Origin: Naegleria gruberi
Taxonomy: Eukaryota
Direction: 5' to 3' (one strand)
Assembly: GCA_000004985.1 (NCBI GenBank)
Contig: GG739334.1
Length of the DNA: 1,739 nucleotides
Positions within the stretch are counted from its first letter, which is position 1, and every line of letters begins with the position of its first letter. The position numbers and the translations under genes are program-made. The notes below the pieces were generated by a model. That model ran no database searches, had not been told where the DNA came from, and saw only the letters and a list, made by a program, of their open reading frames with translations. Positions 1-1,739 of this stretch are shown in pieces.

Positions 1-959
1 GCTCCGTGAGCTAATAATTCTTCATCAATAATGATATTAATGTCAGTACAGAACGAGACTGGAGGTTTTCCTGACAAGAAAAATTCAATTATTTCTTCCA
101 AAGTTTTATCATATGAATGGAGAGCATATGATAAAACCTTTCCTTTTCTTGGCGTTTTAGCATCTTTCAACTTGTGCCAATTCTCATCGAGGACATTAGT
201 CTTCTTTATCATTTCCTTTGCCTTTGTGGATCTCAACAAGGAAGAAGTGTGTGCAGTGAGGATAGCCTCAGTAATCTTTTGTAAAAACAACAGATTTTGC
301 ACATCTGGAGGAGTGCTGGTATTTTGACTAATAATACCTTTCAGTAAGGTAATGGAAACTTTTGGTTCCATATTTGGAGCATTGAAAGAATCCATTTTAG
401 TCTTGAAATAGTTTGTCATCTTGGTTGTACAGTTATGGATTTCCATGAAAAAGTAATCAATTTTTTTTGTAACAAGTTTTTCCATCAAATCGATAACTGG
501 TTTCTCTGGTGCGTTTAAGAAGTTATCATCCGAATTAGCAAGGGAATGCATAAATGAACCATGACCAGGAGCATCAGCAATATGGATTAACACTCTGGTA
601 AAGCTATTCCAGTCTAAATCGACAACTTTTTGCAATCCTCCGGCTACATCTTCAGCAATATCATATCCATACATAAGTGGACAATCTGCAATCGCTTTCT
701 CGATAACTTCCACTTGGTCAGTGAATGGATGAATAACAAATGGTACCTTATCATCAATATCAGCATAACCTACAAAGGCGTAACGAATAGTTTTCACCTC
801 TTGATTTTTGGAAGCAACTTCTTTTAAAACCTTTGAAATAACAGACTTGGCAGAATCCATCCATGTCTTCATAGAACTAGTAATATCTAACAAGAAGCAC
901 AAATCAATGTACTGAGGGTTGCGAGCTTGAATTTCTCGCATTTGCTTAACTGAAATCAT
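1..959 (-). CDS. 5' part of a vWA-domain protein. ATG at 959..957, and the frame stays open to position 1, so the 3' end lies outside the window. The vWA domain spans roughly 908..434 and carries a MIDAS-like D-x-T-x-S motif.
   Basis: Translating the reverse complement from 959 by hand gives an uninterrupted frame of 319 codons plus 2 nt. An in-frame TAA sits two codons upstream (968..966). The translation begins MISVKQMREIQARNPQYIDLCFLLDITSSMKTWMDSAKSVISKVLKEV...IRYAFVGYADIDD...GYDIAEDVAGGLQKV...RVLIHIADAPGHG. This follows the vWA beta1 / beta2 / (GGT-like loop) / beta4-TDG layout: DITSS at 887..873, GYD around 665..657, IADAP around 581..567. The track omits it because there is no stop codon inside the window. 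Codon use is biased and consistent (CCA, GCT, GGA/GGT, AGA). Confidence 0.8.
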   Translation of the reverse strand, partial: MISVKQMREIQARNPQYIDLCFLLDITSSMKTWMDSAKSVISKVLKEVASKNQEVKTIRYAFVGYADIDDKVPFVIHPFTDQVEVIEKAIADCPLMYGYDIAEDVAGGLQKVVDLDWNSFTRVLIHIADAPGHGSFMHSLANSDDNFLNAPEKPVIDLMEKLVTKKIDYFFMEIHNCTTKMTNYFKTKMDSFNAPNMEPKVSITLLKGIISQNTSTPPDVQNLLFLQKITEAILTAHTSSLLRSTKAKEMIKKTNVLDENWHKLKDAKTPRKGKVLSYALHSYDKTLEEIIEFFLSGKPPVSFCTDINIIIDEELLAHG

Positions 960-1024
960 GATGGATTATTTTTTTTAAAGTTGTCAAAGTACTTGATACG
1001 AATGCTGGGCATAAAGTTGGGCGA

Positions 1025-1047
1025 AACGTGATAGACAACGTGAATAG
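1025..1047. repeat. Tandem direct repeat AACGTGA-(A)TAG with 12-bp period: 1025..1034 and 1037..1047.
   Basis: gcgAAACGTGATAGacAACGTGAATAGtga. The heptamer AACGTGA is exact at 1025..1031 and 1037..1043, and each copy is followed by TAG. Each carries an ACGT core. Confidence 0.45.
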
Positions 1048-1059
1048 TGAAGTTTCAAG

Positions 1060-1128
1060 TTGTCAAGAATTAAGCGTTATGACCTGCATAGGAGTGATGT
1101 GATGATATGTTGGTGGAATTGTCAAGAA
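1060..1128. repeat. Exact 10-mer TTGTCAAGAA repeated at 1060..1069 and 1119..1128 (59 bp apart). A third variant copy TTGTCAAAG lies at 981..989.
   Basis: Read directly: caagTTGTCAAGAAttaag, ggaaTTGTCAAGAAgtcac and aaagTTGTCAAAGtactt. The reverse complement is TTCTTGACAA, which contains TTGAC(A). Three copies within about 150 bp of intergenic DNA suggest a repeated transcription-factor binding site. Confidence 0.5.
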
Positions 1129-1129
1129 G

Positions 1130-1163
1130 TCACGTTTTCAACCAAAAAATAGTCATCACGTTT
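1130..1163. repeat. Direct repeat TCACGTTT at 1130..1137 and 1156..1163, placed 53 and 27 bp upstream of the plus-gene ATG.
   Basis: agTCACGTTTtcaacc and caTCACGTTTgatta. Both contain an ACGT core. They lie in the proximal promoter of the plus-strand gene. Confidence 0.45.
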
Positions 1164-1182
1164 GATTACATCAGCAAGAAAA

Positions 1183-1739
1183 ATGACATCACGTACTCCT
1201 AGCAAAGTTCACTTGCTTGTCACATTGGAATGCTCATTCCTTCACAGTAACAAACTTGGAGAGACTGATAACACTATTTTGCACACGATTTTTGATTATC
1301 TTGCTAATTTCTGTGGCAAGTATTTAGTTAAAACTGAGAATTTGACTCTATGTTTGTTGAATAGTAAAGGAAACACGTGTACGAAACACGAATTTACAGG
1401 TAACAGAAAGTTTGAAGAACCTTTCAAACACTTAATACAGCAGTGTGATTTTGCAACCGAAACCAAGCCATTTTCGTTATTTGATATGTTCCAAACATGT
1501 CATACAATCTCATCAAAGGAAGTGGACACCCAAATGGTTGCAATTATGTTTTGTTCTTCTATCAGCTATGTACCATTGGATGGAGGTGAATTGATCTTTC
1601 TTCAAAATTTGAGAGAAAATTCTGTTAAAGTCAGTGTAATTGATTTTGATGTTGGTCAGAGTAAGGAACAGATCTACATTGATTGTATCAATTTGGGAAT
1701 AACCTATTATCAAACCCCAAATTTGAAATATCATCTTCT
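1183..1739 (+). CDS. 5' part of a protein with a degenerate vWA-like (Rossmann-like beta-alpha-beta) fold. It may belong to the TFIIH p34/Tfb4 family. The first ATG after an in-frame TAG (1150..1152) is at 1183, and the frame stays open to the window end.
   Basis: Codon-by-codon translation from 1183 gives 185 codons with no stop: MTSRTPSKVHLLVTLECSFLHSNKLGETDNTILHTIFDYLANFCGKYLVKTENLTLCLLNSKG...MVAIMFCSSISYVPLDGGELIFLQNLRENSVKVSVIDFDVGQSKEQIYIDCINLGITYYQTPN. The start context agaaaaATG is A-rich and Kozak-like, and there is no Shine-Dalgarno sequence. It has the same codon bias as the minus-strand gene (TTG/CTT Leu, CCA Pro, GGA/GGT Gly). Three stretches pattern-match my recollection of human p34: HLLVTLE (vs LLVIVVD), YLANFCGKYLVKTENLTLCLLNS (vs [20 protein letters not shown]) and IFLQNLRENSVKVSVIDFDVGQS...DCINLGITYYQTP (vs [20 protein letters not shown]...ACDITGGLYLKVP). 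This is a loose match from memory, not an alignment. Confidence 0.7.
   Translation, partial: MTSRTPSKVHLLVTLECSFLHSNKLGETDNTILHTIFDYLANFCGKYLVKTENLTLCLLNSKGNTCTKHEFTGNRKFEEPFKHLIQQCDFATETKPFSLFDMFQTCHTISSKEVDTQMVAIMFCSSISYVPLDGGELIFLQNLRENSVKVSVIDFDVGQSKEQIYIDCINLGITYYQTPNLKYHL

What the first reader, a model, noticed from the sequence alone, without database searches (positions are those of the whole stretch)
981..1128. Three copies of TTGTCAA(G/A)(A) in the shared intergenic region
The exact 10-mer TTGTCAAGAA occurs at 1060..1069 and 1119..1128, and TTGTCAAAG occurs at 981..989. All three are in the same orientation inside a 223-bp gap between divergent genes. The 10-mer does not recur in the coding sequence of this window. 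On the other strand the motif reads TTCTTGACAA, and the TTGAC core resembles several known sites (W-box-like, sigma70 -35-like), so its identity is ambiguous. A triple occurrence in so short a region is unlikely by chance, so it is a candidate cis-regulatory element for one or both genes.
Basis: seen in the sequence. Interest (0 to 1): 0.5.

Follow-up and report, generated by a model that had tools for sequence, protein, structure and literature searches.

The report
Repeated TTGTCAA words in Naegleria promoter
Three same-strand copies of TTGTCAA sit in the 223-base spacer between two divergent genes of the amoeba Naegleria gruberi, more often than chance predicts, and they are most likely binding sites for a transcription factor, but this could not be tested against the rest of the genome.

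Summary
TTGTCAA occurs at 981, 1060 and 1119, all on the + strand and nowhere else in the window. The exact 10-mer TTGTCAAGAA is at 1060 and 1119, and copies 1 and 2 share a different 10-mer, AAGTTGTCAA.

The window is a whole 1739-bp scaffold of Naegleria gruberi, a eukaryote. The words lie in the 223-bp spacer between a VWA-domain gene (minus strand, ATG 959) and an orphan ORF (plus strand, ATG 1183).

In shuffles of the spacer, any 7-mer occurring three times has p about 0.025. The full configuration has p about 1.5e-4, but that statistic was defined after seeing the data. The spacer as a whole holds roughly three to seven times more repeated words than shuffles do.

A second family, TCACGT(T), is at least as strong. 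Its copies are mirrored, so each points towards the nearer gene.

The sigma-70 and W-box readings fail. The word is not a general promoter element in 21.5 kb of N. lovaniensis (11 copies, none intergenic), and it is not conserved upstream of the closest homologues there.

The best reading is a cluster of binding sites for one transcription factor in a bidirectional promoter. A TGACA core fits TALE homeodomain proteins, but this is only a lead. Neutral duplication or chance remains nearly as likely. Interest is low to moderate.

The parts
1..959 (-). Gene 1: the first 319 codons of a VWA_4-domain protein. The start codon is at 959-957 and the gene runs off the left end of the window.
   Evidence: Open frame. 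Pfam PF25106 VWA_4 E 3.8e-6. 100% identical to the N. gruberi predicted protein P0001, with the same start. 38-39% identical to two N. lovaniensis proteins, one of which is a VWA + alpha-kinase.
960..1182 (.). The 223-bp spacer between the divergent genes, a presumed bidirectional promoter with both 5' leaders. It is rich in repeated words.
   Evidence: Repeated-word pairs against shuffles: k6 45 vs 16, k7 23 vs 5.5, k8 11 vs 1.6, p <= 0.002. Five of six coding blocks show no excess. No Rfam family, tRNA or tandem repeat.
978..989 (+). Copy 1: AAGTTGTCAAAG. It lies 22-30 nt upstream of the gene-1 ATG, where the gene-1 sense strand reads CTTTGACAACTT.
1057..1069 (+). Copy 2: AAGTTGTCAAGAA, in the middle of the spacer (-101 to -110 from gene 1, -123 to -114 from gene 2).
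1119..1128 (+). Copy 3: TTGTCAAGAA. It lies 55-64 nt upstream of the gene-2 ATG, inside the 75-nt ATG-free stretch, and directly abuts a TCACGT word.
1024..1043 (-). Two copies of the second word family, seen as AACGTGA on the + strand at 1025 and 1037. They read TCACGTT on the gene-1 sense strand.
   Evidence: AACGTGA/TCACGTT occurs 4 times on both strands, p = 0.0068.
1092..1105 (-). GTGATGTGATGA: two further half-copies, which read CATCAC on the minus strand and lack the ACGT part.
   Evidence: Inverted 7-mers 1094/1186 and 1099/1153.
1130..1194 (+). Three TCACGT words at 1130, 1156 and 1189, in the gene-2 sense orientation. The last lies in codons 3-4 of gene 2. The 24-nt imperfect direct repeat 1138-1161 / 1171-1194 carries two of them.
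   Evidence: (D1).
1183..1739 (+). Gene 2: an open frame of 185 codons that runs off the right end. It is an orphan.
   Evidence: No Pfam match. No hit among 5.8 billion proteins. The only hit among 1.84 billion representatives is a spurious one to a repeat protein. AlphaFold2 model pLDDT 35.6.

Best explanation
The three TTGTCAA(R)(R) words are a cluster of binding sites for a single sequence-specific DNA-binding protein. They lie in the bidirectional promoter shared by a VWA-domain gene and an orphan gene of Naegleria gruberi.

The invariant part is TTGTCAA, which reads TTGACAA on the gene-1 sense strand, with partly conserved flanks (AAG on the left, GAA on the right). The factor would help set transcription of one or both genes, working alongside a second, mirrored cluster of TCACGT(T) words.

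The core TGACA/TGTCA is what TALE-class homeodomain proteins (MEIS, KNOX, TGIF) recognise, from my own knowledge. N. gruberi encodes 12 TALE homeobox proteins (PMC6219170).

Shown: the words, their positions, their non-random concentration, and the eukaryotic promoter context. Inferred: that a protein binds them, which protein, and any effect on transcription.
For: - Exact positions and a single orientation.
- All three of the window's copies fall in the 13% of it that is non-coding.
- Any 7-mer three times: p about 0.025. With a repeated 10-mer as well: p = 0.007. Full configuration: 3 of 20,000 shuffles.
- The core is invariant while the flanks diverge immediately. Local alignments beyond the core are no better than shuffles and there is no tandem array. 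This is what selection on a short site predicts, rather than a recent long duplication.
- The spacer as a whole has about 3-7 times the expected number of repeated words, whereas five of six coding blocks have none in excess.
- The source is a eukaryote with short spacers (67-583 bp in the N. lovaniensis locus), so most of a 223-bp divergent spacer is likely to be functional.
- TALE genes are present in N. gruberi.
Against: - No functional or comparative support was obtained.
- In 21.5 kb of N. lovaniensis the 7-mer occurs 11 times, never in the 1889 bp of intergenic DNA (0.97 expected if uniform).
- Upstream regions of the two closest homologues there share nothing significant with this spacer beyond A-runs. 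They carry only TGTCA-type fragments: TTGTCACCTGTCAAAG lies 25-40 nt upstream of the VWA-alpha-kinase gene. These genes are only 38-39% identical to gene 1, so they may not be orthologues and the test is weak.
- A region-level p of 0.007-0.03 would arise by chance in hundreds of the roughly 15,000 spacers of this genome.
- Three sites cannot define a matrix.
- The link to TALE proteins rests on a 5-base core.
Confidence: 0.45

Rival explanations
1. The words have no function. They are chance matches, or leftovers of small local duplications in a spacer that evolves by slippage and duplication. The first reader simply picked the most conspicuous repeat.
For: Exact 10-mer repeats are common in this window: four other pairs are listed (D17-D20). 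The whole-window count of TTGTCAA is not unusual (14 of 200 shuffles reach 3). Region-level p values of 0.02-0.05 for the simple statistics are unremarkable for a genome scan. There is no enrichment in N. lovaniensis intergenic DNA and no conservation at homologous loci. Other repeated words in the same spacer (TAAAGTTG twice, a 24-nt imperfect repeat) could point to a duplication-prone stretch.
Against: The combined configuration is rare in shuffles (3 of 20,000). The copies are 59 and 79 bp apart rather than adjacent, and TRF finds nothing. The flanks are unrelated. The excess of repeated words is specific to the spacer.
Confidence: 0.38
2. The operative element of this promoter is the second word family, (A/C)TCACGT(T), an ACGT-core site of the kind bound by bZIP or bHLH dimers. 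TTGTCAA is secondary or incidental.
For: AACGTGA/TCACGTT occurs 4 times in 223 bp, p = 0.0068, and AAACGTGA 3 times, p = 0.011. Four of the window's six ACGT tetramers lie in the spacer and a fifth lies 8 nt into gene 2. The orientation is mirrored: the two left copies read TCACGT towards gene 1 and the three right copies read it towards gene 2. Copy 3 of TTGTCAAGAA directly abuts one of them.
Against: This does not exclude a role for TTGTCAA, and the two families can coexist. TCACGT is also not enriched in N. lovaniensis intergenic DNA (4 copies, 0 intergenic). The orientation pattern of five sites has a chance probability of only about 1 in 16.
Confidence: 0.3
3. TTGTCAA is a general core-promoter or start-site element of Naegleria, comparable to an initiator.
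For: Copy 1 lies 22-30 nt from the gene-1 ATG and copy 3 lies 55-64 nt from the gene-2 ATG, both inside stretches free of upstream ATGs. These are places where transcription could begin.
Against: The two gene-proximal copies have opposite orientation relative to their genes. None of the 10 N. lovaniensis spacers contains the word. The only words enriched there are A/T runs next to start codons.
Confidence: 0.05
4. The words are W-boxes bound by a WRKY-type protein, or bacterial-type -35 hexamers.
For: The minus strand reads TTGACA in all three copies.
Against: A W-box needs C or T after TTGAC, and all three copies have A. The source is a eukaryotic nuclear scaffold. The sigma-70 scan gives 1 site against 1.1 expected, and that site's -10 hexamer overlaps the gene-1 start codon.
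Confidence: 0.02
5. The words act in RNA, as protein-binding sites in the 5' leaders.
For: Copy 3 may lie in the gene-2 leader and copy 1 in the gene-1 leader.
Against: The two leaders would carry complementary, not identical, sequences. Copy 2 is probably upstream of both start sites, since upstream ATGs lie between it and each gene. No RNA family or structure was found.
Confidence: 0.03

Closest known systems
Clusters of repeated binding sites for one transcription factor in bidirectional promoters of compact eukaryotic genomes
   Same: Several copies of one short word with an invariant core and variable flanks, tens of bases apart, in a spacer of about 200 bp between divergent genes. A second word family sits alongside.
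   Different: No factor, no binding data and no conservation are available here. No promoter motif has been described for Naegleria in the papers searched.
TALE homeodomain sites (MEIS/KNOX/TGIF, core TGACA/TGTCA)
   Same: All three copies contain TGTCA (TGACA on the other strand). N. gruberi encodes 12 TALE homeobox proteins, including MEIS/KNOX-like and PBC-like ones (PMC6219170).
   Different: The typical extended sites (TGACAG, or the PBX-MEIS composite TGATTGACAG, from my own knowledge) are not matched: the base after TGACA is A, and there is no TGAT half-site. The specificity of the Naegleria proteins is unknown.
W-box (TTGACC/T) of WRKY factors
   Same: Shares TTGAC.
   Different: The sixth base is A in every copy, so the defining C/T is missing.
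Bacterial sigma-70 -35 hexamer TTGACA
   Same: The hexamer is identical on the minus strand.
   Different: The genome is eukaryotic and nuclear, and there is no excess of -35/-10 pairs.
ACGT-core elements (G-box / hybrid boxes of bZIP factors, E-box-like CACGT half-sites). This applies to the second word family.
   Same: TCACGTT(T) has an ACGT core with a CACGT half-site, repeated in both orientations.
   Different: The sites are not palindromic (CACGTT or CACGTA, not CACGTG). No factor was tested.

Membership tests
W-box (WRKY binding site) | TTGAC followed by C or T | tested here: not met
   The minus strand reads TTGACA-A in all three copies.
Sigma-70 promoter -35 element | A bacterial host, and a -10 hexamer 16-18 nt downstream, more often than chance | tested here: not met
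   The source is Naegleria gruberi, with homologues on a eukaryote-type N. lovaniensis contig. The scan gives 1 site against 1.1 expected.
TALE homeodomain site | Core TGACA / TGTCA present in each copy | tested here: met
   TGTCA is present in all three copies. A 5-base core has low information content.
TALE homeodomain site | TALE proteins encoded by the organism | tested here: met
   Taken from a paper, not from sequence: 12 TALE homeobox genes in N. gruberi (PMC6219170).
TALE homeodomain site | Demonstrated binding of a TALE protein to the site | not testable with these tools
   Needs EMSA, DAP-seq or a protein-binding microarray.
Tandem repeat / minisatellite | Head-to-tail copies of a unit | tested here: not met
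   TRF at minimum score 30 finds nothing. The sequences between copies do not align better than shuffles.
General Naegleria promoter element | Enriched in intergenic relative to coding DNA of the genus | tested here: not met
   N. lovaniensis, 21.5 kb: 11 copies, 0 in 1889 bp of intergenic DNA. Only A/T runs are enriched. Power is low and this is the sister species, not N. gruberi.
Conserved (footprinted) cis-element | Kept at orthologous loci | tested here: inconclusive
   Only 38-39% identical homologues were found. Their upstream regions do not align with this spacer. No close relative was found in metagenomes or in the protein collections.
Structured RNA gene | Match to an RNA family or a tRNA | tested here: not met
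   Rfam has nothing in the spacer even at E <= 10. No tRNA.

The most novel reading that the evidence does not exclude
TTGTCAAGAA and the mirrored TCACGTT words together are the first recognisable cis-regulatory vocabulary of a heterolobosean promoter. The TTGTCAA word would be read by one of the 12 Naegleria TALE homeodomain proteins. That would give an experimental handle on what TALE factors did near the root of eukaryotes.
Probability: 0.12. Interest if true: 0.5.

Novelty: new member of a known kind. Interest (0 to 1): 0.25.

Why it matters
Almost nothing is published on promoter elements of Naegleria or other Heterolobosea. The literature searches here returned no described motif. If TTGTCAAR or TCACGTT proved to be enriched upstream of N. 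gruberi genes, they would be starting points for building expression tools in an organism that is hard to transform, and for assigning targets to its transcription factors. As it stands this is one promoter with repeated words. It is a reasonable lead, not a discovery.

Tried and rejected
- **Structured RNA or tRNA in the spacer:** none found.
- **Tandem or diverged long duplication:** none. TRF is empty and the flanks do not align.
- **Sigma-70 promoter:** no excess, and the source is a eukaryote.
- **W-box:** wrong sixth base.
- **Coding repeat:** the small ORF 1060-1152 starts on copy 2, but copy 3 falls in another frame of it, so this is not a peptide repeat.
- **Fetching N. gruberi background DNA:** failed. 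All three word-indexed protein searches returned only P0001 from N. gruberi. P0001 is not in the gene-position index.
- **Relatives in metagenomes (gene 1) and viral contigs (gene 2):** none.
- **Contigs of other hits (P0050, P0003, P0034, P0055):** short or tightly packed contigs that I could not tie to Naegleria, so not used.
- **Identity of gene 2:** no Pfam match, no homologue, and no relation to the VWA profile. The only HMMER hit is an artefact of a cadherin-repeat protein. The AlphaFold2 model is uninformative.
- **Alignment of the spacer with upstream regions of the N. lovaniensis homologues:** only A-run matches.
- **TGATG-type words, which looked recurrent in N. lovaniensis spacers:** p = 0.007 before correction for 413 tests, so not significant.

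Full report
**What the window is**

The window is an entire 1739-bp scaffold of the amoeboflagellate Naegleria gruberi. The minus-strand frame from 959 to the left end (319 codons) is 100% identical to the public 'predicted protein, partial [Naegleria gruberi]' P0001, whose only contig is 1739 bases long and which starts at the same ATG.

This protein has a VWA_4 domain (PF25106). Its best eukaryotic relatives are two N. lovaniensis proteins:
- a 438-aa VWA protein (P0002, 39% identity);
- a 911-aa VWA + alpha-kinase (38% identity over residues 6-319).

The plus-strand frame from ATG 1183 to the right end (185 codons) is an orphan:
- no Pfam family;
- no hit among 5.8 billion proteins;
- one spurious hit to a bacterial cadherin-repeat protein among 1.84 billion representatives;
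- no relation to the VWA profile;
- an uninformative structure model (pLDDT 35.6).

An open frame of 185 codons at 35% G+C is very unlikely by chance, so I treat it as a gene. The 223 bp between the start codons (960-1182) is therefore a divergent, eukaryotic promoter region.

**The observation**

Every coordinate in the finding is right.
- TTGTCAAGAA is exact at 1060-1069 and 1119-1128.
- TTGTCAA occurs three times in the window, at 981, 1060 and 1119, always on the + strand. It occurs nowhere in the 1516 coding bases.
Copy 2 (AAGTTGTCAAGAA) thus overlaps copy 1 on its left and copy 3 on its right around an invariant 7-base core.

**Is it more than chance?**

The tests used dinucleotide-preserving shuffles of the 223 bp and asked about any word, not just this one.

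| Statistic | Result |
|---|---|
| Some 7-mer three or more times on one strand | 2.3-2.8% of shuffles |
| Some 10-mer twice | 4.5% |
| Both together | 0.7% |
| Triple 7-mer with two pairs extending to 10 nt or more | 3 of 20,000 |

The last statistic was framed after seeing the data and is optimistic. The simple ones would be met by chance in hundreds of spacers of a genome with about 15,000 genes.

A broader measure is more telling. The spacer has far more repeated words than its shuffles: pairs of shared 6-, 7- and 8-mers number 45, 23 and 11 against 16, 5.5 and 1.6 expected (p <= 0.002). Five of six equally long coding blocks show no excess. The spacer is therefore built from repeated short words.

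**What else is in the spacer**

A second family is at least as prominent.
- AACGTGA/TCACGTT occurs four times (p = 0.0068) and AAACGTGA three times (p = 0.011).
- Four of the window's six ACGT tetramers are in the spacer, and a fifth is 8 nt into gene 2.
- The orientation is mirrored. The copies at 1026 and 1038, plus two CATCAC half-copies at 1094-1105, read TCAC(GT) towards gene 1. The copies at 1130, 1156 and 1189 read it towards gene 2.
- Copy 3 of TTGTCAAGAA abuts the TCACGT word at 1130.
- A 24-nt imperfect direct repeat (1138-1161 / 1171-1194) carries two of the TCACGT words and spans the gene-2 start codon.

**Where the copies sit**

- Copy 1 is 22-30 nt upstream of the gene-1 ATG.
- Copy 3 is 55-64 nt upstream of the gene-2 ATG.
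- Copy 2 is in the middle.

The nearest upstream ATG is 53 nt from gene 1 and 76 nt from gene 2 (a 75-nt ATG-free leader). Transcription probably starts inside those stretches, and copies 1 and 3 are then near or inside the core promoters or leaders. The two gene-proximal copies have opposite orientation relative to their genes.

**What it is not**

- No RNA family or tRNA is present.
- There is no tandem array.
- The sequences around the three cores do not align better than shuffles, so this is not a recent long duplication.
- The sigma-70 idea fails because the organism is a eukaryote and the scan gives 1 site against 1.1 expected.
- The W-box idea fails on its defining sixth base.

**Comparative tests**

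I could not reach any other N. gruberi DNA. All three word-indexed protein searches returned only P0001 from this species. P0001 is not in the gene-position index. Metagenome and viral scans found no relatives.

The best available substitute was 21.5 kb of N. lovaniensis around the two homologues.
- TTGTCAA occurs 11 times there, all within called genes, and 0 times in 1889 bp of intergenic DNA (0.97 expected).
- TCACGT occurs four times, none of them intergenic.
- The only words enriched in those ten spacers are A/T runs next to start codons. The window shows this feature too.
- The upstream regions of the two homologues share only A-run matches with the spacer.
- The VWA-alpha-kinase homologue does carry TTGTCACCTGTCAAAG 25-40 nt upstream of its ATG. 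That is the same strand and about the same place as copy 1, but a shared 8-mer between two such regions is expected by chance about half the time.

These results argue against a general Naegleria promoter element. They say little about a gene-specific site, because the loci may not be orthologous and the sample is small.

**Most likely mechanism**

I favour, at about 0.45, a cluster of binding sites for one DNA-binding protein in a bidirectional promoter, working beside the TCACGT(T) cluster. Three things support this:
- the invariant core with diverged flanks;
- the restriction of the word to the only non-coding stretch;
- the general excess of repeated words in that stretch.

The core TGACA/TGTCA is what TALE homeodomains recognise (my own knowledge), and N. 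gruberi has 12 TALE homeobox genes (PMC6219170). This is a lead, not a test. The extended MEIS and PBX-MEIS consensus sequences are not matched.

The main rival, at about 0.38, is that the words are chance matches or neutral products of small duplications. The reading that the ACGT-core words are the operative element is compatible with either.

**Verdict**

The suggested identities (W-box, -35 hexamer) are rejected. This is an ordinary kind of feature, repeated short words in a promoter, in an organism where no promoter words have been described. Interest is low to moderate. A motif count over the N. gruberi genome would settle most of the question.

Noticed in passing
window 1024-1043, 1092-1105, 1130-1194: A second repeated word family, TCACGT(T)/CATCAC, occurs 5 times plus 2 half-copies. 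The copies are mirrored about position ~1115, so each reads TCACGT towards the nearer gene. Statistically it is at least as strong as the reported motif (p = 0.0068 for the 7-mer occurring 4 times).
   Followed up: partly
window 960-1182: The whole spacer has 3-7 times more shared 6- to 8-mers than its shuffles, and five of six coding blocks do not. Its G+C content (about 0.37-0.385 in 200-bp profile windows overlapping it) is not lower than that of the flanking coding sequence.
   Followed up: yes
window 100-140 (gene 1 coding, minus-strand mRNA): A 16-bp inverted repeat with a 9-nt spacer lies inside the coding sequence. It folds as an RNA hairpin of -15.7 kcal/mol with a z-score of -4.4, and 0 of 200 shuffles fold as well. 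Its meaning is unknown. It also accounts for the repeated-word excess of coding block 1-223.
   Followed up: partly
window 1138-1161 and 1171-1194: A 24-nt imperfect direct repeat (75% identity) lies 33 nt apart, and its second copy spans the gene-2 start codon (AAAAATGACATCACGT against AAAATAGTCATCACGT). It looks like a small duplication of the start region (D1).
   Followed up: no
window 1012-955, minus strand: If gene-1 transcripts start upstream of 1012, an 18-codon upstream ORF (ATG at 1012) would end in a TGA that overlaps the main ATG (TCATGA). This was read by eye from the sequence.
   Followed up: no
window 1183-1739: Gene 2 is an orphan, and no gene model for it was found in the protein collections: no relative among 5.8 billion or 1.84 billion proteins. 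Its last residues, QIYIDCINLGIT, faintly resemble the start of the VWA domain of gene 1, PQYIDLCFLLDIT (hhalign E 0.37, not significant).
   Followed up: partly
window 1-959 compared with L004:3525-6260 and L004:10001-11509: Both N. lovaniensis homologues have an N-terminal extension of about 75-90 residues before the VWA domain. The N. gruberi gene lacks it, with its VWA domain starting about residue 18. The public model P0001 also stops at residue 207, at a presumed intron, although the frame stays open and homologous through residue 319.
   Followed up: partly
L004 spacers, and window 965-976 and 1144-1150: In N. lovaniensis the only words clearly enriched in intergenic DNA are A/T runs such as CAAAAAA next to start codons (p down to 1e-15). 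Both leaders in the window show the same A-rich stretch just upstream of the ATG.
   Followed up: partly
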